This document shows, in pieces, positions 7,745 through 55,732 of a stretch of 64,000 nt of DNA. The DNA is from a virus (Duplodnaviria; Caudoviricetes). Within the stretch, counting starts at the first letter, position 1, and every line of letters starts with the position of its first letter. Under the pieces are notes generated by a model that saw only the letters and a program-made list of their open reading frames with translations, had not been told where the DNA came from and made no database searches. The translations under genes were made by a program, and so were the position numbers. The stretch lies in IMG/VR virus record IMGVR_UViG_3300028914_000059, positions 64,001-128,000 of that record, one strand, 5' to 3'.

Positions 7745-8002
7745 ATGATAGAAAAACTGGCACAAGATATATATAATGCTGCTATTATCAAACTGGCTGC
7801 TTATGACTTTAATAAGGGACCTTATGGTAAAGAAAACGCTGAGTTAATTTTAAAAGAATATCCTAAAACTTTAAAATATATAGAAAACCTAAGATCAGAC
7901 CCTAAAACTGATCCAAGGATGCTGAAATTTGAAGAAGATAATCTCCCATATTTAACAAAACTACACGAAGATGCTCAGGCATACTTAGCCTCACTTAAAT
8001 AA
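7745..8002 (+). CDS. KLAxDI-leader family protein
   Basis: MIEKLAQDIYNAAIIKLAA. Confidence 0.75.
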   Translation: MIEKLAQDIYNAAIIKLAAYDFNKGPYGKENAELILKEYPKTLKYIENLRSDPKTDPRMLKFEEDNLPYLTKLHEDAQAYLASLK

Positions 8003-8005
8003 GCA

Positions 8006-9733
8006 ATGTTCCACAAACTAGCCCACGACATATATACAGCTACATTGATAAAGCTGGCTTTTAAAGCCAACCAGAATAACTTTACTCATGGCACCTCTGC
8101 TGTATTCTCAAAGACCACTAAGCGCCCCGACAGAGAGCCCGATAAAAAGTCACCCAAGAAAGGAAGCGATTCCGAGTACTGGGTAACTCCTATGGGGATA
8201 GTCAGGGGCAGTGACCACTGGGGCACTGTCGGGACCTGTAACTGGGATCTTGCCGGGTCGCCTGATCACCCCGGCAAGAAAGTCTATGGGTTTAGTCCGT
8301 GGGAAAACTTCAATAAGAAAACCGCAGCCTTAGATACTATCCAACACTACACTAAAAGTGGCCCAAAAGATCAGGTAAGCAAGTCGGTATCACAATGGCA
8401 TGATGAGAACCCTGAAGCTGCCGAAGCCTTTCTCCTAGATTTATATAATAAACTTGGTTGGAAAAACAACAACCCAGCAAAATATATGAAGACTAGACAT
8501 GAGTTGGAAAACTGGATGTATGAACAACTTCCTCAGTTAGGTATTAAAGCTGATACTAAATATCCAACGTATGGCAGTTTAGATCTGGGGTATACTCCTG
8601 AAGTATTCCAGGATATGAACTCTCATTTAGATATACCATTAAAAGGACTAGAAGATAAAGTTACCTTTAGTATTGGTGACTCTATACCAGTACTTGGAAA
8701 GGCAGACCCTGCCAGCAGAAAATTATACAGTCTTAAGGACATACAGAGCATGCCTTTAAATGAAGTTATAGAGAAAGTAAAGGCTAGTACAAATAATAGC
8801 AGAGGTCAGAATTACCTTGAAGCTCAGATATGGACTACCCCTGAAGAACTTCAACAGGTTGCTAAATTAATCGAAAAAACTGGCTCTAAAAAAGTTCTTA
8901 AAGGCTATTATGATATGACCCCAGAAGAACAGGAGGCTGCTCGTAACTCCCTTAAAGACAATGAAGTAGTCTACTTATCTTCTAAACCTATCGGTCGTGG
9001 GTATGAGGGATCTGCTTATCCAGTACTGACTAAAGACCTGGGTGAAGCTATCAGGAAAAACTTTAACGGTTGTTATGGCGAGACACCTCACCTTCAACGC
9101 ATGATAGAATTAAAAGGTAACAAAATAGACCAGCAGGTAAGAGATTTATTTGATGCTGGGGAATTTGAGAAAGCATATGAACTATATGCTGCAGACAATC
9201 CACGCAAACGGATGAAAAACAGGCTGGCTGAAAGAATGCAAGTACTAATGAATCCTGATAATGCTGATCTGTTTGCTGCATTAGCTAAAGCCCAGCCGAG
9301 AAGAGTGCATGAAAATATAGGTGGGGGTATAAGAGCTGTAGAACCAGGATTAGGTAGTCTTATTATGGAAAAGCTAAAAGTTCAAGATGACTCGAAAGGG
9401 TTCACTGAAGCTGACTTTATATCCATGAATACAGACCTAGCTGAAAGAATCATGAAAGCTCATATCGGAGACAAGCCGGCTTATGGAACGGACTTCCCGG
9501 AAAAATTTACAACACCCAATGGTAAGATAGGGCCCAACATGCGTTTTGCACCTATACTACGTGGCGCTGATGGTAAACTTTACCAGGTCAAGGATATACG
9601 AAACGTCTTTGATAAAATGGCTCTGCCAGAAATGTTCAGAAGTCACGAGACGGCCTTTCACAATGCCGGACTCAATGATAACAATCAGCTGAAAATATTT
9701 GATTTTGGTACTAAACCAATAGAGGAGGCCTAA
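8006..9733 (+). CDS. KLAxDI-leader multidomain protein with C-terminal protein-kinase-like domain
   Basis: Leader MFHKLAHDIYTATLIKLA; internal KTA (aa105) and KTG (aa291); IGRGYEGSAY glycine loop, AIRK, LIMEKL, LKIFDFG. Confidence 0.7.
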   Translation: MFHKLAHDIYTATLIKLAFKANQNNFTHGTSAVFSKTTKRPDREPDKKSPKKGSDSEYWVTPMGIVRGSDHWGTVGTCNWDLAGSPDHPGKKVYGFSPWENFNKKTAALDTIQHYTKSGPKDQVSKSVSQWHDENPEAAEAFLLDLYNKLGWKNNNPAKYMKTRHELENWMYEQLPQLGIKADTKYPTYGSLDLGYTPEVFQDMNSHLDIPLKGLEDKVTFSIGDSIPVLGKADPASRKLYSLKDIQSMPLNEVIEKVKASTNNSRGQNYLEAQIWTTPEELQQVAKLIEKTGSKKVLKGYYDMTPEEQEAARNSLKDNEVVYLSSKPIGRGYEGSAYPVLTKDLGEAIRKNFNGCYGETPHLQRMIELKGNKIDQQVRDLFDAGEFEKAYELYAADNPRKRMKNRLAERMQVLMNPDNADLFAALAKAQPRRVHENIGGGIRAVEPGLGSLIMEKLKVQDDSKGFTEADFISMNTDLAERIMKAHIGDKPAYGTDFPEKFTTPNGKIGPNMRFAPILRGADGKLYQVKDIRNVFDKMALPEMFRSHETAFHNAGLNDNNQLKIFDFGTKPIEEA

Positions 9734-11801: not shown

Positions 11802-13805
11802 TCAACCTATAGCGATATAATCAAATGCCACAGTGGCAGTACCGGTGTTATAAACAGTAAATCTGTCTGTGGACTTGGAAACCCAGACATCACCAAGTTG
11901 TCCATCGGTGTTTGCTGTTGGTGTAACAGCAACGGTATAGTTTGTATTTGCAAAAGCAGCTGGTAGCATTACAACCCTGCCAATAGTTCCGTTAAATGTA
12001 GAGGAGCCTCTCATAGGCTTCAGATTGTTAACCTTATCATGAACGTGAGAGTTTTTCACGGTTCCACCAAGAGCCAATATCTGAGTTGCAAAGTTAGCTG
12101 GAGTATAGTATCTGATGTAACCATCATATGAAGCATACACTCTATCCATAGTAGTAGTGCTTGCATTTCCGCTGGTTGTATTTATCCAGCCGCATTTTGT
12201 ATGTCCACTTGCATCGGTCTTTACAAGCTTATTGGCTTCATTGTTTACACTGCCGGAAGTCACATGCAAACCATCGACCTTGTCTGAATCCAGAACAGTC
12301 ATAGTGAACGTAGAATTGCCAAGATTAGTTATTGTAGTGCTGCCTGATACATTACCGGCTGCTGTTATGGTAAAGTCATTAACATCGAAGTTCAACTTGC
12401 CGGAATTATCATCATATGTAACAGCAATTCCACTTTCGGTGTTTCCACTAATCATGCCACCGACATAATCCTGAACAGTTTCCATATGGCCATCGAGAAA
12501 TTCCTGCAGGCCTATTACAGAAGTAGCTGGAATGCGTTCGCCATGACTAGCAACACCAGAGTGGTCGTGAATACCAATATCAACACCATCAACTGTGGCA
12601 TTAAGAGCAACAGTGATATCACCTGTGAAGCTGGAAGTTCCATGAACAGCCAGATTCTGAAGTGAGGTATTAGTCTGAGCTATGGTAACTTCATTTTCTG
12701 ATATTTCAAACTTAGGTGCATTCTGAACACCGAAATATAAACTTACAGAGGAGTGGGCATTGAATATCTTCCAAGGCGTATTATTGCCTGAAGCCAGAGT
12801 CAGTATGCTGTCGTCAAGGGTAACAGCATTGTTAGTAAAAGTTACGTCAGCCTGGGTGCCATATTCGTTACCAGCATAGTAGATCGGGTCACTGGCACCA
12901 CCTAATGTAAGAGTGCCACCAACCGAAGCATCACCATTACCACCGACTGTAAACAAATTATTATTGCTACTGTTCTTACAGGAAATTACAGTACTACCAG
13001 GGGTAGCGGCTGAGTTGGCCTTATATATAAATCCCTCATCTGTAGTAGTTACAGAAGGAACTGTTATGTCAGAAGTGAAGTTGATACCGTTGGCGGTAAC
13101 ACCGAGCTTGTTGCCCTGAATAGTTACATCACCCTTAAGGATGTTAAGGTTACCATTCCTGTCAACAATTACAGCGGCTTCGTTAAGACCCATGGTTCTG
13201 GTCTGCAGTTCGAGAAGATTTCCAAGGAAAGTATCCTCGACTGGCTCTCCTGCTTCTTCGTCGAGACCAGTCCCATCCGGAGCCACAATAATACCAGTGT
13301 GATTAGTTGCAGATGAAGGTGTAACTAAAAGACTGTCATAGTCTATTGTTTCTGACTCAACTTTAGTTGTGGTACCCACAACAGTGAGGTCACCATCAAT
13401 AACAACACTGCCGGAAATATGTGTCTGACCACCTATACTGGTAACTCCACTTATATTAACATCCCCATCCAAAGTAGCATTGTCTGCTTTAAGGTCACCA
13501 TCTATATCTAAAAGAACATTACCATCTCCGGCATTCGTGACAGTTATAGTCTGTTGAATTGAAGATGGGGCTGATTGTATATCTTCAGAACGGATAGTGG
13601 ACTGGGTCAGTATCTGGCCATGTGGATCTGACGAGGTGGCTTCATGTGCAGACAATCGCTGGTCTACAGCCGAAGCGCGATCGTTCAGCTCAGTGGTATT
13701 ATAAGTAAGAGCTATCTTGCTTTCAGATATTTGAGCATCCTCAGCAATAACAGCATCTGTTATTGTCAACGGTTGAATTGAATGGGTTCCGTGTAATTTT
13801 TTCAT
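11802..13805 (-). CDS. Tail fibre protein
   Basis: GDLTVVGTTT, HDH and DSDKVDGLH fibre motifs; C-terminal GDVWVS..FTVYNTG domain. Confidence 0.75.
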   Translation of the reverse strand: MKKLHGTHSIQPLTITDAVIAEDAQISESKIALTYNTTELNDRASAVDQRLSAHEATSSDPHGQILTQSTIRSEDIQSAPSSIQQTITVTNAGDGNVLLDIDGDLKADNATLDGDVNISGVTSIGGQTHISGSVVIDGDLTVVGTTTKVESETIDYDSLLVTPSSATNHTGIIVAPDGTGLDEEAGEPVEDTFLGNLLELQTRTMGLNEAAVIVDRNGNLNILKGDVTIQGNKLGVTANGINFTSDITVPSVTTTDEGFIYKANSAATPGSTVISCKNSSNNNLFTVGGNGDASVGGTLTLGGASDPIYYAGNEYGTQADVTFTNNAVTLDDSILTLASGNNTPWKIFNAHSSVSLYFGVQNAPKFEISENEVTIAQTNTSLQNLAVHGTSSFTGDITVALNATVDGVDIGIHDHSGVASHGERIPATSVIGLQEFLDGHMETVQDYVGGMISGNTESGIAVTYDDNSGKLNFDVNDFTITAAGNVSGSTTITNLGNSTFTMTVLDSDKVDGLHVTSGSVNNEANKLVKTDASGHTKCGWINTTSGNASTTTMDRVYASYDGYIRYYTPANFATQILALGGTVKNSHVHDKVNNLKPMRGSSTFNGTIGRVVMLPAAFANTNYTVAVTPTANTDGQLGDVWVSKSTDRFTVYNTGTATVAFDYIAIG

Positions 13806-15076: not shown

Positions 15077-15517
15077 TTAGTAGGTGGCCCAGGTTACACT
15101 GGTTGCTCCACCATAAGTAGAGGTCTTTACTGAGGACGTCCAGTTGGAATTGTTGGCTTTGTGATAGATTGTAAGGGTAAGACCTGAAAAAGCTGATGAA
15201 GATAGTGAAGTAGGGGGGTTACCTGCAAAATACACTTTTTTCAAGTTAGAGCAGCCATAGAAACAATAGTTACCTAAAGAGATGACTGATGACGGGATTG
15301 TGATAGAAGGGAGGGAGGAACAGTCTCTGAAACAATTATTAGATAAAGAAGTGATTGATGATGGGATTGTGATAGAAGTAAGGGAAAAAAAGCTGCTGAA
15401 ACAAGCTTCTTTCAAAGAAGTGACTGATGATGGGATTGCGATAGAGCTTATGTCCGATAATTTAGCTGATGACTTAACCTCAGCAAGTGGAATGTTTCCG
15501 TAATATATAGTTGGCAT
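15077..15517 (-). CDS. BspA-type leucine-rich repeat (LRR_5) protein
   Basis: SITIPSSVTSLGxxCFxxCxSL repeats (about 3). Confidence 0.85.
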   Translation of the reverse strand: MPTIYYGNIPLAEVKSSAKLSDISSIAIPSSVTSLKEACFSSFFSLTSITIPSSITSLSNNCFRDCSSLPSITIPSSVISLGNYCFYGCSNLKKVYFAGNPPTSLSSSAFSGLTLTIYHKANNSNWTSSVKTSTYGGATSVTWATY

Positions 15518-15518
15518 A

Positions 15519-16319
15519 TTAATATGTACTCCATGTTACACTTCTAGCTCCGCCATAATTAGATGTTTTTATTGAAGAAGTCCAGTTAGAATTATTTGAT
15601 TTATGATAAATAGTAAGGGTTAAGCCTGGGAAAGGACTACCTAATGTGGGAGGATTACCTGCAAAATACACTTTTCTTAAGCTACGGCAGGTGCTGAAAC
15701 AATAGTCACCTATAGAAGTGACTGATGATGGGATTGTAATAGAGGCGAGGGATTCACAGAGATAAAAACACGCTATTCCCAAAGAAGTGACTGATGATGG
15801 GATTGTGATGGAAGTAAAGGCAGGACAGCCATAGAAACACTCTTTTCCCAAAGAAGTGATGGATGATGGGAGTGTGATGGAAGTAAGTGAATAACAGTTG
15901 TAGAAACATGATTCTCCCAAAGAAGTAACTGATGATGGGATTGTAATGGAAGTAAGAGAAGAGCAGCCAAAGAAACAATAGTCACCTATAGAAGTGACTG
16001 ATGGTGGGATTGTGATAGAGGGGAGAGAAGAACAATCCATGAAACAATAGTTACCTAAAGAAGTTACTGATGGTGGGATTGTAATGGAAGTAAGAGAAGA
16101 ACAGCGATAGAAACACTCTTTTCCCAAAGAAGTGACTGATGGTGGGATTGTAATACTAAACAAAGGTCCACAGCTATCAAAAGCTCTATCCTCTAATGCA
16201 GTGGTACCTGATGGCACATCAATATACAATCTATAAGCTCCGCTATAAAATGGTATGAAGTTCATTCCTGGAGGTTTAATCCCTTTTATCTGGGTGCCTC
16301 CCCAATATAATTGGGCCAT
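15519..16319 (-). CDS. BspA-type leucine-rich repeat (LRR_5) protein
   Basis: About seven 23-aa repeats (69-bp tandem DNA repeats); C-terminal cap paralogous to 15077. Confidence 0.88.
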   Translation of the reverse strand: MAQLYWGGTQIKGIKPPGMNFIPFYSGAYRLYIDVPSGTTALEDRAFDSCGPLFSITIPPSVTSLGKECFYRCSSLTSITIPPSVTSLGNYCFMDCSSLPSITIPPSVTSIGDYCFFGCSSLTSITIPSSVTSLGESCFYNCYSLTSITLPSSITSLGKECFYGCPAFTSITIPSSVTSLGIACFYLCESLASITIPSSVTSIGDYCFSTCRSLRKVYFAGNPPTLGSPFPGLTLTIYHKSNNSNWTSSIKTSNYGGARSVTWSTY

Positions 16320-50263: not shown

Positions 50264-50821
50264 ATGTTGATTGGACTGTGTGGATATGCCAGATCCGGGA
50301 AAGATACTGTGGCATCCATGATGCCTGGGTTTCTTCATCATTCTTTTGCTGCAAAGCTTAAAGAGGAAGTGTCCACTATGTTGAATTCTGTTGGTATAGA
50401 AGCTAATTTTAATAACGAAGATACAAAAGTAGCCCTTAGGCCATTTCTTGTGTTCTGGGGCGCATTTAAACGTAAAGAAATACCGCTTTACTGGGTGAAC
50501 GGAATGCAGACTCACCTTACACCACATGAAGATCACGTCATTACTGATGTCAGATATCTCAATGAAGCTCAGTGGATAAAGGAACATGACGGTGAAGTCT
50601 GGTATATAGACAGACCTGGGATCGGTCCTGCCAATGACGAAGAAGCAAAGAGCTTTGCTGAAATCTTCAGGGAATGTGCTGTAGGCCATAATATATTTGA
50701 CAGAGTTATCCATAATAGAGCAGATCTGGAATATCTGAAGGGTGTTGTAAAGATGGAAACGGAACTTGCCAAAGGACATGAGCGCAGAAGACTGGACCCC
50801 GAATATCGTGTAGATTTTTAA
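50264..50821 (+). CDS. Deoxynucleoside monophosphate kinase (T4 gp1-like)
   Basis: LIGLCGYARSGKDT P-loop, FAAKLKE, YWV, VITDVRYLNE, IHN. Confidence 0.88.
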   Translation: MLIGLCGYARSGKDTVASMMPGFLHHSFAAKLKEEVSTMLNSVGIEANFNNEDTKVALRPFLVFWGAFKRKEIPLYWVNGMQTHLTPHEDHVITDVRYLNEAQWIKEHDGEVWYIDRPGIGPANDEEAKSFAEIFRECAVGHNIFDRVIHNRADLEYLKGVVKMETELAKGHERRRLDPEYRVDF

Positions 50822-50829
50822 CGAACCCG

Positions 50830-50858
50830 TTGAATCATCATATAAATGATGGTATAAT
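50830..50858 (+). promoter_or_regulatory. Sigma70 promoter of the RNA array
   Basis: TTGAAT-17 nt-TATAAT with TG extended -10. Confidence 0.7.
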
Positions 50859-50865
50859 ATATTTG

Positions 50866-51088
50866 TAAACTTCCGGAACACGACATTAGCTGACGGGCTT
50901 GAAGCGATGTCAGGACCGAACCCATGATATCCTAGGTGACGATTATAATCATGGCAGTAGCTCCTGAAAGAACGGAAGAAACCGGTTGTTTAACGAGAGT
51001 GTCAATCTGCAAAGGCACTATAAACTGCACAGACTCAAGTGAGCCTATTATCGAGGCTTTGCAAAACGGGAGAGCAGAAGGAAGTTTA
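50866..51088 (+). ncRNA. Unassigned multibranch structured RNA (about 220 nt)
   Basis: Closing stem TAAACTTCC/GGAAGTTTA; internal helices GACATT/GATGTC, CCATGAT/ATCATGG, AGTGTC/GGCACT. Confidence 0.55.
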
Positions 51089-51123
51089 AATGCAGGTTTC
51101 ACCTTCACCAGAAACCTCTTAAT

Positions 51124-51197
51124 GGCAGGGTAGCTCAGATGGCTAGAGCACACGGTTCATACCCGTGATGTCGTGAGTTCGATTCTCACCCCTGCCA
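51124..51197 (+). tRNA. tRNA-Met(CAT), elongator-type
   Basis: GGCAGGG/CCCTGCC; CACGG-TTCATAC-CCGTG; canonical D and T arms; CCA not encoded. Confidence 0.92.
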
Positions 51198-51202
51198 TAT
51201 GT

Positions 51203-51415
51203 GTCCTGGCAGCCTAATGGGCAGGCGGCCATAAGCAGTCCACTATTTTTATCCATCCATTTGAAGCTCCATCTATATTGATTAAAACTTTAGTGGATTA
51301 GCAGGAAGATGTCAGTTCGAATCTGACATGCTCCACATCGGGGCTATAGACTAACTGGCAAGTCGTCCTACTTGCGTGCTTATGGTGAAAGCTGGTTCGA
51401 TACCAGTCCAGGACT
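51203..51415 (+). ncRNA. Double-headed tRNA-like RNA 1 (outer tRNA, inner permuted tRNA, third arm)
   Basis: GTCCTGG(51203)/CCAGGAC(51408); GCCATAAGCA/TGCTTATGGT; inner ATGCTCC-A/GGGGCTA; AGCAGGA/TCCTACT; two D arms and two TTCGA T arms. Confidence 0.85.
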
Positions 51416-51430
51416 TTCTTAATAATTTTC

Positions 51431-51515
51431 GGGTAGGTGCCGGAGTGGTTAATCGGAGCGGACTGTAAATCCGCTGGTCTAACGGTCTACGGTGGTTCGA
51501 ATCCACCCCTGCCCA
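51431..51515 (+). tRNA. tRNA-Tyr(GTA)
   Basis: GCGGA-CTGTAAA-TCCGC; long variable arm; A73. Confidence 0.92.
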
Positions 51516-51581
51516 TTTGATGGAGGGAAAAGGATACTACAAAGGCTAAGTTTGGAGTATCCTGGAACCTACATCAACAAA

Positions 51582-51729
51582 GAACCAGTAGCTCAAGTGG
51601 ATAGAGTATCCATGGAATCAGGAAGCAACGTGAGTTCGAATCTCACTGTCGTTGGTAACAAAACGACATGGCCAAGCGGCGAGGCACCTGTCGATTGGGA
51701 GGTTCTGGGTTCGAACCCCAGCTGGTTCA
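51582..51729 (+). ncRNA. Double-headed tRNA-like RNA 2
   Basis: Outer GAACCAG/CTGGTTC-A; inner TGTCGTT-G/AACGACA; connectors TCC/GGA and CAGG/CCTG; two D arms and two T arms. Confidence 0.85.
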
Positions 51730-51730
51730 A

Positions 51731-51876
51731 TGGTTATTTCTGGATGTGTCAAAGTGATACCCCTGTGTTCGATAGGATGCATACATCGGCATGGGTAGTA
51801 TAGCAGAAGACACAGGTTGCTGCAGCAACTACGTAGAGCCATAGTGCTCTTTGGGTAAAACCCACCAGGATAATCA
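51731..51876 (+). ncRNA. Unassigned multibranch structured RNA
   Basis: TGGTTATTTCTGG/CCAGGATAATCA closing stem; CCTGTGTT/GACACAGG; several short hairpins. Confidence 0.55.
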
Positions 51877-51879
51877 CCT

Positions 51880-51963
51880 GGAGGAATGTCCGAGTGGTCG
51901 ATGGTGAGAGTTTGCTAAACTCTTGGATCAAAAGTCCCGCAGGTTCGAATCCTGCTTCCTCCG
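51880..51963 (+). tRNA. tRNA-Ser(GCT)
   Basis: GGAGGAA/TTCCTCC-G; AGAGT-TTGCTAA-ACTCT; variable arm. Confidence 0.92.
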
Positions 51964-52079
51964 ATGATTATTGTTTGAGCAGTGTGCACTATGACAACAG
52001 CGGCGAAGTGTCAGGCTGAGACGTCAGCATTGTCCCAGTAGCCGGCATGAGTCATACATTGGCTGTTCATGCAATATGA

Positions 52080-52175
52080 GGACGACAGACCGAGTTGGAG
52101 AACGGGGAGGCTATTTAAGCCTCTGCTCATTTGGTAGATGAGCTATAGTGTGGTTCGAATCCACACTGTCGTCCT
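52080..52175 (+). tRNA. Atypical type-II tRNA-like RNA, anticodon undefined
   Basis: GGACGACA/TGTCGTCC; GAGG-CTATTTAAG-CCTC; 8-bp variable arm; 6-bp T stem. Confidence 0.6.
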
Positions 52176-52462
52176 TGACGGGTACAGCGGTACAGCCTAG
52201 GCCCTACACTAATGGATAAGAGTGCGCACTCTTGAGTGTATTATGGCCGGACGTAGAGTGGTTATCCTTCCCAATGAAAACGTCCCCTTGAGATTTTCGA
52301 CGGTTTGCTGGATGTGCCGGCCAGCATCATTTCCAACGCGGAACCCTGATCAGATTGCGTAAGTACGAAATGCGTTCACACAGAAAGAACACCGTTGGCT
52401 GGGTGTATGAGGTAGCGGTTGGCGCTACGTCTCGTGCCCAGCCTTCCTGCCCTGCAGGGATT

Positions 52463-52518
52463 AGACCTCCACGCGGGAGCTTAAGCCTTGTAAGCACCGT
52501 ACCATGTGGAGGCCGCTA
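52463..52518 (+). repeat. Structured motif copy 1 (AGCCTTG loop)
   Basis: AGACCTCCACGCGGGA...AGCCTTG...CCGTACCATGTGGAGGCCGCTA; second copy at 53934. Confidence 0.75.
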
Positions 52519-52519
52519 T

Positions 52520-52604
52520 GGGGCGGTAGTTGTAATGGTAGAACGTGCAGATAGATAATTCCGCGGTTGTCTGCAAGGTCGTGGTTCGATTCCACGTCGC
52601 CCAT
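52520..52604 (+). ncRNA. tRNA-like RNA with elongated anticodon arm and no 7-nt loop
   Basis: GGGGCGG/TCGCCCC-A; TGCAGATA/TGTCTGCA around 14 nt; CGTGG-TTCGATT-CCACG. Confidence 0.75.
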
Positions 52605-52625
52605 TTTCTGAAAAGGAGAATTACT

Positions 52626-53255
52626 ATGCCTAAACTTTGTGCAAAAATTGGCGGAGAAACATATAAGTTTGGTTTTAACGGGGGGGTACTTCAAGAAAAA
52701 ACTTTAAACCAAACTGTAAATGATGAAGCCACTGCTTACTTTATAGAGGCTTATAAGGTAACTAGTCATAATCCATGGCAAGCCATGAGTTATACTATAG
52801 CAAAAGATTTAAAGTATAATTGTCCTTGTAAATGTTACTTTAATGACTCAATGCTTATATGGACAGCTGGATGGAACAGAGACTTCTTTATTAGTGATAA
52901 AAATGTAAGCAATACGGTGAGCGAATATAGAGTCTATATAAAAATACCGAAGTTTATTGAAAACTGGGGGAGGCCTGATGCTGACACCTCTTTTATGCTT
53001 AGTGAAATATACTCCAGATGTGACAGGAATATAATATGTTCAACAGATGGTGATCCCATGCATGAGTTAGATATAGGTGATGATCATATAGCTAGAAGCT
53101 TACTGACAGACTGGACTAATTATATATTTGATGGTGACAGGGATTATTACATAGCATTTGTGATAGAGTTAGATACTACTCACTCCAACATTCACCTGTT
53201 TGTACCATCTTTTAAAGCGACATTTTACAGATATACAGGAAACTATATAGCATAA
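52626..53255 (+). CDS. Hypothetical protein (tandem duplicate A), possibly fibre-tip-like
   Basis: Start MPKLCAKIGG after AAGGAG; closely similar to 53281. Confidence 0.75.
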   Translation: MPKLCAKIGGETYKFGFNGGVLQEKTLNQTVNDEATAYFIEAYKVTSHNPWQAMSYTIAKDLKYNCPCKCYFNDSMLIWTAGWNRDFFISDKNVSNTVSEYRVYIKIPKFIENWGRPDADTSFMLSEIYSRCDRNIICSTDGDPMHELDIGDDHIARSLLTDWTNYIFDGDRDYYIAFVIELDTTHSNIHLFVPSFKATFYRYTGNYIA

Positions 53256-53280
53256 TCTATATAAAGGTAGGAGAATTACT

Positions 53281-53886
53281 GTGCCTAAACTTTGTGCAAA
53301 AATTGGTGGAGAAACATATAAGCTTGATTTTAACAGTGGGGTACTTCAGGAAAAAACTTTAAACCCAACTGTAAATGATGAAGCCACTGCTTACTTTATA
53401 AGGGCTTGGGGGGCGACTACTGGTCGGACTGTAGCAGAAGATTTAAAGTATAATTGTCCTTGTAAATGTTACTTTAATGACTCAATGCTTATATGGACAG
53501 CTGGATGGAACCAAAACTTCTTTATTAGTAATAAAAAGGTAAGCGATACGGCGCTAAAATATGAAGTTTGGATAAAAATACCTAAGTTTATTGAAAACTG
53601 GGGGAAACCTGATGATAGCACCTCTTTCATGTTTAGTGGAATATATTCCAGATATAATAGGAATATAATATGTTCAACAGATGGTGACCCTTTGCATGAG
53701 CTAGACATGGGTGATGACCATATAGAGAGAAGCTTAATGATAGACTGGACTAATTTTTTTGATGGAGACCATGATTATTACATACTATTCAGAGTAGAGT
53801 TAGATGGCACTCACTCCAACATTTACCTGTTTGTGCCATCTTTTAAAGTGACCTTTTATAGATATACAGGAACCTATCTAGCATAA
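53281..53886 (+). CDS. Hypothetical protein (tandem duplicate B)
   Basis: GTG start; shared GCATAATCTATATAAAGGTAGGAG junction. Confidence 0.75.
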   Translation: MPKLCAKIGGETYKLDFNSGVLQEKTLNPTVNDEATAYFIRAWGATTGRTVAEDLKYNCPCKCYFNDSMLIWTAGWNQNFFISNKKVSDTALKYEVWIKIPKFIENWGKPDDSTSFMFSGIYSRYNRNIICSTDGDPLHELDMGDDHIERSLMIDWTNFFDGDHDYYILFRVELDGTHSNIYLFVPSFKVTFYRYTGTYLA

Positions 53887-53933
53887 TCTATATAAAGGTA
53901 GGAGTTCAGCCTTGGAAATAAAGACTGCCAATC

Positions 53934-53986
53934 AGACCTCCACGCGGGAATCCAGCCTTGGGATCCGTACCATGTGGAGGCCGCTA
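53934..53986 (+). repeat. Structured motif copy 2 (AGCCTTG loop)
   Basis: Same flanks as copy 1; inner stem changed to ATCC/GGAT. Confidence 0.75.
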
Positions 53987-54141
53987 AATTAAAAGTGCCA
54001 AACGGGAAAGGCACTCTAAACATGGACACATCAACCATGGACCCGGTACCGGGTCCCAATGAAGCACCGCCAGAAATGGCTACGGCACTGGTTACAAAGC
54101 CGTAGTACCTGCCTCTCGAGCGCATGAGACAGGAACAAACT

Positions 54142-54292
54142 GAAGTAGAGGTAGGCTGGTAGCCCAGCTGGTTAAGGCACCCGGAGGAAAGTTAGCGGGG
54201 GATTATATTCCGTCACGCATTAGCTTTCTGCAAGGGAGATCAGGGGTTCGAGTCCCTTCCAGGCGACAAGACCGAAAGGTCCCCTCTACTTC
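54142..54292 (+). ncRNA. tRNA elbow embedded in a larger RNA
   Basis: Outer stem GAAGTAGAGG/CCTCTACTTC; D arm GCC-CAGCTGGTTAA-GGC; T arm AGGGG-TTCGAGT-CCCTT; anticodon arm replaced by long stem GGAAAGTTAG/TTAGCTTTCT. Confidence 0.7.
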
Positions 54293-54298
54293 TCTTTA

Positions 54299-54371
54299 GC
54301 CCCAATCGTCTAATATAATAGGATAACCGGCTTCTAGCCGGAGATGCGGTGAGAGTCCGCAAGGGGCGCCA
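54299..54371 (+). tRNA. Degenerate tRNA, anticodon TCT (Arg) on a Glu-like body
   Basis: GCCCC/GGGGC-G-CCA; CCGG-CTTCTAG-CCGG; D loop lacks GG; T loop TGAGAGT. Confidence 0.5.
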
Positions 54372-54372
54372 A

Positions 54373-54466
54373 GACGATTTATCCGAATTGGAAATAGGGG
54401 GAGGCTGTGAGCCTCCGGATATATGTTAATGTATATCCTGTGGTGGTTCGATTCCACCAGTCGTCA
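54373..54466 (+). tRNA. Type-II (long variable arm) tRNA with GTG (His) anticodon and A73
   Basis: GACGATT/AGTCGTC-A; GGAGG-CTGTGAG-CCTCC; variable arm GGATATAT/GTATATCC. Confidence 0.8.
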
Positions 54467-54470
54467 ATCT

Positions 54471-54541
54471 GGGTCGGTAACCAAGCGGTTAGGTGCTGCT
54501 CTGCAAAAGCAGCTAGATCAGTTCGACTCTGATCCGGCCCT
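54471..54541 (+). tRNA. tRNA-Cys(GCA)
   Basis: GGGTCGG/CCGGCCC-T; CTGCT-CTGCAAA-AGCAG; U73. Confidence 0.92.
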
Positions 54542-54598
54542 CTCATTTATTCATGAGATAAAATTTCTTTTCGTTGGCCAGCGCTGGCCAACATTTTT

Positions 54599-54760
54599 GA
54601 CTGCCTCGTCTAACGGATAAGACACAGGATGGGTTACGTAAAGGGTCATTTCTATCTCCTTAGTTTGATCTCAGAGTCTCATTCCTTCCTTTCATTAACG
54701 GTGTTTTTAGTCAAGTCAAGTTGCTCCGCCTGAATGCCGGTTCGAATCCGGCGGCAGTCT
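54599..54760 (+). ncRNA. tRNA scaffold with a 100-nt insert replacing the anticodon loop
   Basis: GACTGCC/GGCAGTC; GTCT/AGAC D arm; CAGG(54625)/CCTG(54729); GCCGG-TTCGAAT-CCGGC. Confidence 0.8.
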
Positions 54761-54895
54761 CTGGAGCCCGTATGAAATATGATGGGTTACCAATAAGGCA
54801 TGCTTCCGCCTGTAATGGGGCAGAGTATGTTTTAATTCGATGTCCTCCTTTTAAAAATTGTCATCGAGCATGCTGGGAAACTGGTATGCTCTTAC

Positions 54896-54979
54896 GCCCG
54901 GTTGGCGAAACTGGCAGACGCATATGATTCAGGTTCATATGTCCGCAAGGACGTGCGGGTTCGACCCCCGTGCCGGGTA
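54896..54979 (+). tRNA. tRNA-Leu(CAG)
   Basis: TATGA-TTCAGGT-TCATA; GTCC-GCAA-GGAC variable arm; A73. Confidence 0.92.
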
Positions 54980-55017
54980 CTGTTGTTTGTAGTAATCATT
55001 AAAAAACTCTATGCCTT

Positions 55018-55057
55018 GGTGCAGCTGTAATATTTTATTGCCGCTGCACTTTTTTTA
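55018..55057 (+). terminator. Intrinsic terminator closing the RNA array
   Basis: GGTGCAGC/GCTGCACT followed by a T tract. Confidence 0.65.
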
Positions 55058-55096
55058 TCTGTACATTTACGCTATAATATTAAAGAGGAGAGCACT

Positions 55097-55375
55097 ATGA
55101 GCAGAAGTTATAAGAAGACATCATACAGTGGTGATACTAATGATAAGGCTTATAAGAAGGTTTCTAATAAAAGGATTCGCAGTTACCCGGAAATTCCGGA
55201 TGGCTCGTTCTTTAAGAAGATAATGTGCTCCTGGTTCATTAAAGACTACTGCTCATATATGACTGAGAAGGAGTTTATGGAGGATTGGTATGATCCTGAG
55301 TCGTACATGAGGAAGTTGTGGCCAACCTATGAAGAAGCCCACCAGAACTATATGAAATATTACAGGAGAAAATGA
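55097..55375 (+). CDS. Conserved basic phage protein (MSRSYKK family)
   Basis: MSRSYKK..K..NK.IR...G..KK...SW.I.DY pattern; GAGGAG SD. Confidence 0.75.
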   Translation: MSRSYKKTSYSGDTNDKAYKKVSNKRIRSYPEIPDGSFFKKIMCSWFIKDYCSYMTEKEFMEDWYDPESYMRKLWPTYEEAHQNYMKYYRRK

Positions 55376-55378
55376 CCG

Positions 55379-55732
55379 TTGAAAGACATTATAATTGATG
55401 ATGTTCCAAATGCTGTAACCGTGGCTATAAATACCCTGGCTGATTATTGCAGAAGTATTCAGGGTGATAAGTATAATCCGTTCAAATGTAGAAAATGTCC
55501 TCTGTACGGCAGGAACACAGATAAGAGAGCAACAGCAGTAAGTGGTGACTATGAGGATTGCTTCTTCAGCATGTATCATAACAGTGTTCGAAGATGGGAT
55601 AATATACTAAGAGGCAAGCATCCTGACAGTGGGCATTCAGCATTCGAAGTGATGACATCATCCATGTCTCCCGACGATAAGGTTCCTGAAGACAGAGGCA
55701 GCTTTCAGATTAAAGATAAACCCTTAGAATAG
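55379..55732 (+). CDS. Cys-rich hypothetical protein
   Basis: YC...CRKCPL...C. Confidence 0.6.
   Translation: MKDIIIDDVPNAVTVAINTLADYCRSIQGDKYNPFKCRKCPLYGRNTDKRATAVSGDYEDCFFSMYHNSVRRWDNILRGKHPDSGHSAFEVMTSSMSPDDKVPEDRGSFQIKDKPLE

What the first reader, a model, noticed from the sequence alone, without database searches (positions are those of the whole stretch)
51582..51729. Second double-headed tRNA RNA with unrelated sequence: the architecture recurs
Seen: the same crossed topology with different sequence. Outer acceptor GAACCAG (51582-88)/CTGGTTC-A (51722-29) is 7/7. Inner permuted acceptor TGTCGTT-G (51647-54)/AACGACA (51662-68) is 7/7, closed by a short linker. There are two D arms (GCTC-AAGTGGATA-GAGT; GCC-AAGCGGCGA-GGC) and two T arms (GTGAG/CTCAC; CTGGG/CCCAG). 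The anticodon-arm strands TCCATGGAATCAGG and CCTGTCGATTGGGA lack a normal self-paired stem but pair with each other at both ends (TCC/GGA, CAGG/CCTG), giving a minimal dumbbell. Inference: two sequence-unrelated instances under 200 nt apart, with perfect swapped acceptor stems here, argue for selection rather than decay. The D loops look Arg-like (outer) and Gln-like (inner), which is tentative.
Basis: partly seen in the sequence, partly recalled or inferred. Interest (0 to 1): 0.92.

Follow-up and report, generated by a model that had tools for sequence, protein, structure and literature searches.

The report
Two-headed anticodon-less phage tRNA mimic
A 148-base gene in a phage's tRNA operon folds into two complete tRNA bodies joined tail to tail with no anticodon loop; related phages keep the fold through compensating mutations, so it is a real RNA that looks like tRNA but cannot read codons, a design I did not find in the papers or RNA library searched.

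Summary
Window 51582-51729 (+) lies in the tRNA operon of a 180-kb uncultured tailed phage. It folds as two tRNA bodies joined tail to tail:
- an outer acceptor stem (7/7) formed by the two ends;
- an inner acceptor stem (7/7) closed by an 8-nt loop;
- two D arms and two T arms carrying the universal core bases;
- two crossed 4-bp 'anticodon' stems around a small internal loop, with no 7-nt anticodon loop.

Nine homologues in related phages keep the fold. They fall into three lineages: B, its 71%-identical orthologue D, and paralogue C. In total 96.9% of cells are paired and 24 of 40 pairs changed on both sides, including all four long-range helices.

ARAGORN's 'tRNA-Asp with a 74-nt intron' does not hold up. 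The would-be anticodon reads GTC, GGC or GAC, or lacks U33, among relatives, and its middle base tracks pairing in the inner stem. Nothing in Rfam matches, neither tRNA nor YrlA.

Best reading: a non-decoding two-domain tRNA mimic matured by tRNA-processing enzymes, with an unknown target. The closest published things are YrlA Y RNAs and the 'tRNA inside a tRNA intron' of Lak megaphages, which has a different arm order. This scan has already noted the same design in at least eight other phage genomes.

The parts
51582..51588 (+). outer acceptor stem, 5' strand
   Evidence: Pairs 7/7 with 51722-51728. Helix 1 has 6 of 7 pairs changed on both sides among 9 homologues.
51591..51607 (+). D arm 1 (4-bp stem, 9-nt loop with A14, G18 G19, A21), preceded by U8 at 51589
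   Evidence: invariant core bases. Helix 2 is 100% paired.
51609..51612 (+). outer 'anticodon' stem, 5' strand (TCCA)
   Evidence: Pairs with 51696-51699. Helix 3 is 100% paired, with 3 of 4 pairs changed on both sides. A C-G to U-G to U-A series occurs within element B variants.
51613..51618 (+). junction strand J1 (6 nt), ending in a conserved A-A/U-U before the inner stem
   Evidence: Comparison of B, C and D variants.
51619..51622 (+). inner 'anticodon' stem, 3' strand (CAGG)
   Evidence: Pairs with 51687-51690. Helix 4 has 4 of 5 pairs changed on both sides.
51623..51629 (+). variable region of the inner body (7 nt)
   Evidence: Position between the inner stem and T arm 1.
51630..51646 (+). 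T arm 1 (5-bp stem, TTCGAAT loop); belongs to the inner body
   Evidence: Helix 5 is 100% paired.
51647..51654 (+). inner acceptor stem, 3' strand, plus 'discriminator' G
   Evidence: Pairs 7/7 with 51662-51668. An A-U to G-C compensatory change occurs within element B variants. Helix 6 has 6 of 7 pairs changed on both sides.
51655..51661 (+). linker loop closing the inner acceptor stem; the most variable segment
   Evidence: 3 of 7 positions vary among B variants, against about 12% elsewhere. In element C it is a hairpin whose sequence is replaced with compensation.
51662..51668 (+). inner acceptor stem, 5' strand
51671..51685 (+). D arm 2 (3-bp stem, 9-nt loop with GG), preceded by U8 at 51669; the most conserved block across B, C and D
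   Evidence: Helix 7 is invariant.
51687..51690 (+). inner 'anticodon' stem, 5' strand (CCTG)
   Evidence: helix 4.
51691..51695 (+). junction strand J2 (5 nt; conserved C-G-A). Its first base is T, G or A in relatives and tracks pairing with the T at 51618.
51696..51699 (+). outer 'anticodon' stem, 3' strand (TGGG)
   Evidence: helix 3.
51700..51704 (+). variable loop of the outer body (5 nt)
51705..51721 (+). T arm 2 (5-bp stem, TTCGAAC loop); belongs to the outer body
   Evidence: Helix 8 has 3 of 5 pairs changed on both sides.
51722..51729 (+). outer acceptor stem, 3' strand, plus discriminator A; no CCA is encoded, as in the neighbouring tRNAs
51203..51415 (+). sibling element A: the same two-headed topology with a 10-bp connecting stem, an extra AU-rich arm, and an inner acceptor carrying G3-U70 and A73
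   Evidence: It is 96-98% conserved in all relatives, with changes concentrated in the extra arm's loop.
50830..50858 (+). sigma-70-like promoter match (10 of 12, with TG) ahead of the + strand tRNA array
   Evidence: This is a consensus match only.

Best explanation
The element is the gene for a structured, non-decoding RNA made of two tRNA-like bodies.

The outer body uses the two ends of the RNA as its acceptor stem, together with D arm 1 and T arm 2. The inner body is circularly permuted: T arm 1, then an acceptor stem closed by a loop, then D arm 2. This is the arm order of the tRNA-like domain of YrlA Y RNAs. The two bodies are joined through their 4-bp 'anticodon' stems and a small conserved internal loop, so neither presents an anticodon.

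Shown:
- the fold, and its maintenance by compensating changes in three lineages of related phages;
- its place in the + strand tRNA array;
- the lack of a conserved anticodon.

Inferred:
- It is transcribed with the neighbouring tRNAs.
- Its outer ends are matured by host RNase P, 3' trimming and CCA addition, as for the CCA-less tRNAs beside it.
- The 7-bp inner acceptor hairpin may also be cut by RNase P and receive CCA, as happens in M. smegmatis YrlA. That would give two ~70-nt strands that stay paired.
- The RNA acts by shape, occupying or bridging proteins that recognise the tRNA elbow and acceptor rather than the anticodon. Examples are tRNA-directed defence nucleases, or tRNA repair, modification and surveillance factors.

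My odds: fold under selection about 0.9; non-decoding about 0.8; decoy or adaptor for tRNA-binding proteins about 0.35.
For: Anatomy: read directly.

Ordinary detection fails:
- No standard tRNA call.
- No Rfam match at E<=1.
- No YrlA match at E<=10.

Homologues:
- Found in related uncultured phages through the dNMP kinase cluster.
- There are 5 variants of B, one orthologue D at 71% identity, and 3 variants of paralogue C.
- Model R1 finds them all at 80-182 bits, against 46 bits or less for ordinary tRNAs.

Covariation:
- 96.9% of cells are paired.
- 24 of 40 pairs have changes on both sides.
- 0 of 500 shuffles reach these values.
- Slid controls give 30-47% paired.
- All four long-range helices covary.
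- Many G-U pairs occur on the + strand only, which indicates an RNA of this strand.

Crossed versus uncrossed acceptors: uncrossed pairing is 1-3 of 7. In the control of 43 tandem tRNA pairs, none is crossed.

The would-be anticodon varies: GTC in two B variants, GGC in three, GAC in D, and no U33 in C. Its middle base goes T-T, then G-U, then A-U with the opposite strand.

Other support:
- The universal core bases of both bodies are invariant.
- The two pieces cofold at -53.0 kcal/mol against -14.4 and -19.0 alone.
- M. smegmatis YrlA, with a 7-bp acceptor hairpin, is cut by RNase P and gets CCA in vivo (PMC4201824).
- Free-standing permuted modules of the same kind sit beside the tRNA array of a distant 198-kb phage.
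Against: - No expression or end-mapping data.
- The covariation rests on only three independent lineages and on an alignment fitted to the model.
- Nearest-neighbour folding does not prefer the cloverleaf arms. The proposed fold is -43.4 kcal/mol against an MFE of -52.9, because the two T regions can pair with each other. This is common for tRNAs but remains a caveat.
- One variant (L050) has a C-C mismatch at the first outer acceptor pair.
- No partner protein is identified. The phage has no Ro60/TROVE, RtcB or CCA-adding enzyme, and the neighbouring ORFs match no family.
- The family was found only in this phage lineage.
Confidence: 0.55

Rival explanations
1. It is an intron-containing tRNA, as ARAGORN reads it: tRNA-Asp(GTC) with a 74-nt intron at 32/33. 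The tRNA-like insert is removed by an unknown endonuclease and the exons are joined, perhaps by the phage RNA ligase, to give a decoding tRNA. This would parallel the 'enigmatic introns' reported in Lak megaphage tRNAs.
For: - ARAGORN with introns allowed gives a cloverleaf with loop C-T-GTC-G-A.
- The phage encodes an Rnl-type RNA ligase (PF09414, phrog_968).
- Phage tRNAs with introns, one predicted to encode a tRNA, are published (10.1101/356790).
- Other tRNA-like genes in this array also carry inserts at the anticodon position.
Against: - The 'anticodon' is GTC, GGC or GAC in close relatives, and paralogue C has no U33.
- The variable middle base tracks pairing in the inner stem.
- The outer body lacks bacterial tRNA-Asp features. 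It has A73 and A2-U71, read against identity rules known to me.
- The junction has no bulge-helix-bulge geometry, and the host type is bacterial, given a long-arm tRNA-Tyr.
- RNase P or RNase Z cuts in the inner body would remove only the linker, not the insert.
- ARAGORN's intron mode also makes a false call inside the ribonucleotide reductase ORF.
- No intron-less copy of the outer tRNA was found in any relative.
Confidence: 0.08
2. The mature product is a two-piece heterodimer whose two CCA ends are aminoacylated. It would act as a bivalent aminoacyl-tRNA mimic, for example titrating EF-Tu or synthetases, or feeding an aminoacyl-tRNA-dependent enzyme, rather than as a passive decoy.
For: - Both acceptor stems are 7 bp with a single unpaired base after them, and are stacked on 5-bp T stems.
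- The pieces cofold strongly.
- M. smegmatis YrlA is cut and receives CCA in vivo.
- Sibling element A keeps G3-U70 and A73 in its inner acceptor in all relatives.
- Two B variants have G3-U70 with A73 in the outer acceptor.
Against: - G3-U70 is polymorphic in B and absent from its inner stem.
- The discriminator differs among B, C and D (A, T; G, T), so no single identity set is conserved.
- No charging data exist.
Confidence: 0.15
3. It has no function in trans. It is a cis element of the tRNA operon, serving as a processing punctuation mark, a transcript stabiliser or an RNase P entry site.
For: - It sits inside a tRNA array between tRNA-Tyr and tRNA-Ser.
- Its presence varies as a cassette among otherwise 94-97% identical relatives.
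Against: - Ordinary tRNAs already provide processing sites.
- A punctuation mark would not need two complete elbows with all core bases, nor two crossed stems that covary.
- The lineage keeps two or three such genes per genome.
Confidence: 0.07
4. It is two decayed tandem pseudo-tRNAs, or a chance arrangement.
For: Standard tRNA finders reject it.
Against: - Both acceptors are 7/7 in the crossed sense only.
- Compensatory changes occur in every long-range helix.
- Core bases are invariant while the flanks diverge completely.
Confidence: 0.02

Closest known systems
YrlA (Y RNA-like A, Rfam RF02553), the tRNA-like Y RNA of bacteria and mycobacteriophages (Chen et al. 2014, PMC4201824; structure preprint 10.1101/312249)
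   Same: - The inner body has YrlA's arm order: variable region, T arm, acceptor-like stem closed by a loop, D arm, all closed by a helix in place of the anticodon stem.
- The tRNA core bases are kept.
- A 7-bp closed acceptor stem, as in M. smegmatis YrlA, which RNase P cuts and which then receives CCA.
   Different: - No match to the YrlA model, even at E<=10.
- No Ro60/TROVE gene in the phage.
- The Ro60-binding 5' motif is not at the YrlA position. Only variant D carries a matching heptamer, and it lies on the other strand of the connecting helix.
- The Ro60 'handle' is replaced by a second, complete, open-ended tRNA body.
Lak megaphage tRNAs with 'enigmatic introns', one predicted to encode a tRNA (Devoto et al., bioRxiv 10.1101/356790)
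   Same: A phage tRNA-like gene whose anticodon position carries a second tRNA-like body. It is conserved among related phages and has no known splicing route.
   Different: In Lak-A1 (MK250016) the inner body is in normal order, so the arms run D-D-T-T, and it has its own long anticodon-arm hairpin. Here the inner body is permuted (D-T-D-T) and shares the connecting helix. Model R1 does not hit the Lak elements.
Circularly permuted and split tRNA genes of Cyanidioschyzon merolae and Archaea (PMC3218864, PMC3728597)
   Same: A 3' tRNA half is encoded upstream of the 5' half, with the acceptor strands joined by a short linker.
   Different: Those genes yield decoding tRNAs through bulge-helix-bulge splicing and circular intermediates, in eukaryotes and archaea. 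Here there is no anticodon loop, no such motif, and the setting is a bacterial-type phage.
Two-piece (permuted) tmRNA
   Same: The tRNA-like part has a permuted gene order, and linker removal gives two paired strands.
   Different: - ARAGORN finds no tmRNA.
- There is no tag reading frame or pseudoknots.
- Element B's inner acceptor lacks G3-U70, although sibling element A has it.
Phage T4 stable RNAs rnaC and rnaD (species 1 and 2), function unknown
   Same: Small stable RNAs encoded at the end of a phage tRNA cluster downstream of the dNMP kinase gene. rnaC ends in a tRNA-like T arm and acceptor.
   Different: rnaC has a single T arm and no second body. R1 scores only 14.9 bits on it.

Membership tests
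canonical tRNA (Rfam RF00005) | Cloverleaf detected by standard tRNA models | tested here: not met
   No ARAGORN call in default mode. No RF00005 match at E<=1, while seven neighbours score 37-68 bits.
canonical tRNA (Rfam RF00005) | 7-nt anticodon loop with U33 and an anticodon conserved among orthologues | tested here: not met
   Only a 6 x 5 nt internal loop joins the stems. The candidate triplet is GTC, GGC or GAC, or lacks U33, in relatives.
canonical tRNA (Rfam RF00005) | Acceptor, D and T arms with the universal core bases (U8, A14, G18 G19, A21, T54 T55 C56 A58, G53-C61) | tested here: met
   Present twice, and invariant in 9 homologues.
YrlA (RF02553) | Match to the family covariance model above 69 bits | tested here: not met
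   No match on the element at E<=10 or E<=1.
YrlA (RF02553) | Arm order T arm, closed acceptor-like stem-loop, D arm | tested here: met
   Inner body 51630-51685. Definition from PMC4201824.
YrlA (RF02553) | GNCGAAN0-1G motif near the 5' end, ahead of the T arm (the Ro60 contact) | tested here: not met
   Absent ahead of T arm 1 in B, C and D. A matching heptamer occurs only in D, and it lies after D arm 2.
YrlA (RF02553) | Encoded within about 4 kb of a Ro60/TROVE gene | tested here: not met
   No PF05731 match in the 180-kb phage record. The host genome is unknown.
intron-containing tRNA spliced at a bulge-helix-bulge motif | Two 3-nt bulges separated by a 4-bp helix at the exon-intron borders | tested here: not met
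   By inspection of 51609-51622 and 51687-51699, the junction is an internal loop between two 4-bp helices. ARAGORN's 3' border falls inside a helix.
bacterial group I intron in a tRNA gene | Intron of about 200 nt or more with a group I core | tested here: not met
   The insert is 74 nt and there is no Rfam intron match.
permuted (two-piece) tmRNA | Tag reading frame and G3-U70 alanine identity | tested here: not met
   No tmRNA found by ARAGORN -m. There is no room for a tag. The inner pair 3-70 is C-G.
Lak-type nested tRNA 'intron' | A complete inner tRNA-like body in normal order inside the outer anticodon stem | tested here: not met
   The Lak-A1 elements run D-D-T-T. This element runs D-T-D-T.

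The most novel reading that the evidence does not exclude
Host RNase P, a 3' processing nuclease and the CCA-adding enzyme open the inner acceptor loop. The phage would then make a stable heterodimer of two half-swapped ~70-nt strands with two CCA ends. This would be a bivalent tRNA look-alike that can be charged, or can bind two tRNA-recognising proteins at once, and the phage would use it to jam or bridge host tRNA-directed defence, repair or surveillance machinery. Together with the other anticodon-less tRNA bodies in this array, it would mark a class of phage counter-measures built from tRNA shape alone.
Probability: 0.15. Interest if true: 0.85.

Novelty: new variant of a known kind. Interest (0 to 1): 0.7.

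Why it matters
Phage tRNA arrays are usually read as codon-usage helpers or as replacements for tRNAs cut by host defences. This array carries genes that keep every part of a tRNA except the part that reads codons, and it doubles the body. That points to a function based on tRNA shape: binding, blocking or bridging proteins that handle tRNAs.

The permuted inner body links these phage RNAs to YrlA Y RNAs, whose tRNA-like domain still has no known partner. A partner found for one could explain the other.

The result also matters for annotation. Such genes are missed by tRNA finders, or miscalled as intron-bearing tRNAs with arbitrary anticodons.

The fold is small, with defined ends, and is directly testable in vitro with RNase P, CCA-adding enzyme and synthetases.

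Tried and rejected
- **Rfam.** A scan of 50500-55500 at E<=1 gave nothing on the element. YrlA in the own genome at E<=10 gave nothing on it.
- **blastn.** A search of 51000-52300 against 50,697 phage records hit only the ordinary tRNA-Tyr and tRNA-Met.
- **IMG/VR scans.** None gave a relative of the element. These were an exact 24-mer, two degenerate patterns and three neighbour proteins. Terminase relatives at 64-71% identity are short fragments without the tRNA region.
- **Metagenome scan.** The single scan, with a degenerate D-arm-2 pattern, returned only chance matches in GC-rich coding DNA. The pattern was badly chosen and the scan wasted.
- **First contigs.** The first two Logan contigs end before the array. 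The 44-46% kinase relatives are not syntenic.
- **Cultured phages.** Model R1 found no two-headed element in BcepSauron, Ralstonia FLC1-1B, Lak-A1 or T4.
- **Phage-encoded partners.** There is no TROVE, RtcB or CCA-adding enzyme. Pfam and PHROGs gave nothing for the ORFs around and inside the array.
- **Motifs considered and rejected.** A kink-turn or sarcin-ricin motif in the junction does not fit consistently across B, C and D, judged by eye. Cross-ligation of the junction strands into two anticodon loops is not possible, because only 11 unpaired bases are available. A DNA-level hairpin or attachment site is unlikely, because the G-U pairs are strand-specific.
- **Isotype of the two bodies.** The best matches are weak.

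Full report
**Setting.** The window is bases 64001-128000 of a 180-kb IMG/VR virus record with 41% G+C. It is a tailed phage.
- It encodes a large terminase, a baseplate J protein, a split family A DNA polymerase, an AEP-MCM primase-helicase, ribonucleotide reductase and an Rnl-type RNA ligase.
- A + strand array of tRNA and tRNA-like genes runs from about 51120 to 54980, directly downstream of a dNMP kinase gene. A sigma-70-like promoter match lies at 50830-50858.
- The array includes a long-variable-arm tRNA-Tyr, which is the bacterial type.

**The observation.**
- The first seven bases pair 7/7 with the seven bases before the final A.
- The seven bases after T arm 1 pair 7/7 with seven bases that follow an 8-nt loop.
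- There are two D arms and two T arms, each with the universal tRNA core bases.
- Between D arm 1 and T arm 1 there are 22 nt, the normal tRNA spacing, yet no local anticodon stem can form.
- Instead TCCA (51609-12) pairs with TGGG (51696-99), and CAGG (51619-22) pairs with CCTG (51687-90). A 6 x 5 nt internal loop is left between them.

The whole structure is nested. It consists of two four-way junctions joined by a short rod.

**Chance.**
- The uncrossed acceptor pairings reach only 1-3 of 7.
- In 43 tandem tRNA pairs taken from other phage arrays, the uncrossed acceptor is 7/7 in all but one. None has both crossed pairings at 6 or more.
- Both acceptor helices have probability of about 1.0 in the thermodynamic ensemble.

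**Relatives.** IMG/VR and INPHARED gave no homologue. The 90%-identity protein cluster of the neighbouring dNMP kinase led to ENA and Logan contigs of sister phages. In these phages the array is a mosaic of cassettes.
- Element A (51203-51415) is present in all of them at 96-98% identity.
- Element B, this finding, is present in the window and in five further lineages at 93-96% identity.
- B is replaced at the same position by a 71%-identical orthologue, D, in L057.
- B is absent from the L041 group. That group instead carries a paralogue, C, between element A and tRNA-Tyr.
- Conservation starts and stops at the ends of the element, while the flanks are unrelated.

**Covariation.** A covariance model built on B and D with the proposed structure finds B, D and C at 80-182 bits. 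Ordinary tRNAs reach 46 bits at most, and only by deleting the inner body. On the nine-sequence alignment:
- 96.9% of cells are paired.
- 24 of 40 pairs have changes on both sides.
- No shuffle out of 500 reaches these values.
- Sliding the partners drops pairing to 30-47%.
- Each of the four long-range helices covaries: outer acceptor 6/7 pairs, outer stem 3/4, inner stem 4/5, inner acceptor 6/7.

Stepwise changes are also visible within the close B variants alone. The inner acceptor shows A-U to G-C. The outer stem shows C-G to U-G to U-A. The many G-U pairs exist only on the + strand, so the constraint is on an RNA of this strand.

Caveats: only three independent lineages are represented, the alignment is fitted to the model, and the nearest-neighbour MFE prefers pairing between the two T regions (-52.9 against -43.4 kcal/mol).

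The same mode also calls a 'tRNA-Thr' inside the reductase ORF. The would-be anticodon is not conserved.
- It reads GTC in two B variants, GGC in three and GAC in D. In C the loop has no U33.
- The variable middle base faces a T across the inner stem and goes T-T, G-U, A-U. That is the pattern of a helix end, not of a decoding base.
- The junction is not a bulge-helix-bulge, and the insert is far too small for a group I intron.
- Cuts by RNase P or RNase Z in the inner body would remove only the linker.
- No relative carries an insert-free copy.

I put this rival at about 0.08.

**What it resembles.**
- *YrlA Y RNAs.* The inner body has the arm order of the tRNA-like domain of YrlA: T arm, closed acceptor-like stem, D arm (PMC4201824). 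The M. smegmatis YrlA, whose closed stem is 7 bp as here, is cut by RNase P and receives CCA in vivo. Membership nevertheless fails. There is no match to RF02553 and no Ro60 gene in the phage. The Ro60-contact motif is not ahead of the T arm.
- *Lak megaphage.* The Lak paper reports phage tRNAs with 'enigmatic introns', one predicted to encode a tRNA. I located two such genes in Lak-A1. Their inner body is in normal order (D-D-T-T), which is a different topology from the D-T-D-T order here.
- *T4 rnaC.* It has a single T arm.
- *Free-standing modules.* A distant 198-kb phage (terminase 31% identical) has two free-standing permuted modules of the inner-body type just upstream of its 34-tRNA array. 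The permuted module is therefore a unit that exists on its own and is here mounted on a tRNA body.

**Earlier notes of this scan.** Notes by AI agents, unchecked by me except as stated, report two-headed anticodon-less tRNA-like RNAs in at least eight other phage genomes. Several are said to keep the two bases read by valyl-tRNA synthetase. In this family only variant D has A-C at that place, so that feature does not carry over. I did not find the design in the papers searched.

**Mechanism.**
- *Shown:* a + strand RNA fold with two tRNA-like bodies, under purifying selection, inside a tRNA operon and without a conserved anticodon.
- *Inferred from the known behaviour of RNase P, 3' processing and CCA addition on CCA-less tRNAs and on M. 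smegmatis YrlA:* the outer ends are matured like a tRNA. The inner loop may be opened, giving two ~70-nt strands that remain paired (cofold -53.0 against -33.4 kcal/mol for the strands apart).
- *Speculative:* the RNA works by shape on proteins that read the elbow and acceptor. The phage keeps two or three such genes, plus further tRNA bodies with plugged anticodon arms at 52520-52604, 54153-54266 and 54599-54760. That suggests a broader strategy built on non-decoding tRNA shapes.

No partner protein is identified, and no expression data could be obtained.

**Verdict.** The element is a real, conserved, non-decoding two-domain tRNA mimic. I class it as a new variant of known tRNA-mimic RNAs, with the function still open.

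Noticed in passing
window 51203-51415: Element A is a larger two-headed tRNA-like RNA. It has a 10-bp connecting stem and an extra AU-rich arm, and its inner acceptor carries G3-U70 and A73 (alanine-type). It is 96-98% conserved in all sister phages, with changes concentrated in the extra arm's loop.
   Followed up: partly
L041:7268-7428, L059:6276-6435, L057:4105-4267: Element C is a paralogue of this finding that sits between element A and tRNA-Tyr in sister phages. The linker between its inner acceptor strands is a hairpin. The hairpin's sequence is wholly replaced in L057, but the pairing is kept.
   Followed up: yes
window 52520-52604, 54153-54266, 54599-54760: Three further tRNA bodies have intact acceptor, D and T arms but an elongated or replaced anticodon arm. 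ARAGORN's intron mode labels two of them Asn(GTT) with a 13-nt insert and Ser(GCT) with a 91-nt insert. Homologues are present in relatives.
   Followed up: partly
window 52082-52174 and 54373-54466: Two tRNAs of 93-94 nt have long variable arms but Lys (TTT) and His (GTG) anticodons. The first has a 9-bp acceptor stem. These are unusual bodies for those anticodons.
   Followed up: no
window 50900-55100 compared with L041-L063: Among phages that are 94-97% identical in the flanks, the tRNA array is a mosaic of cassettes. B with its flanks (51577-51872) is absent from the L041 group. A 373-nt block holding C is inserted there. The two ORFs at 52605-53886 are present in only some relatives.
   Followed up: partly
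L191:1538-1700 and L191:1749-1833 (a 198-kb IMG/VR phage; terminase 31% identical): Two free-standing circularly permuted tRNA-like modules lie just upstream of a 34-tRNA array. Each runs T arm, 7-bp closed acceptor hairpin, D arm, and is closed by a stem. A further anticodon-less tRNA-like gene lies at L191:546-670.
   Followed up: partly
L196 complement 7832-8018 and 15484-15648 (Prevotella phage Lak-A1, MK250016): These are the published 'tRNA inside a tRNA intron' genes. The inner tRNA-like body is in normal order and is flanked by the two halves of an outer tRNA-like body. The record carries no annotation.
   Followed up: partly
genome 10400-12337 and 13266-14390 (L006): The family A DNA polymerase is split into two ORFs, with a 226-aa ORF (12481-13161) between them. 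This may be an intron or a mobile insertion.
   Followed up: no
genome 4652-5809 (L006): An RNA ligase with an N-terminal OB fold (PF21189 plus PF09414; phrog_968). No RtcB, Ro60 or CCA-adding enzyme was found in the phage.
   Followed up: partly
L185:8103-8211 (Ralstonia phage FLC1-1B, right after tRNA-Tyr): An unannotated 109-nt tRNA-like gene in a cultured jumbo phage. It scores 30 bits with model R1 as a single body with an insert.
   Followed up: no
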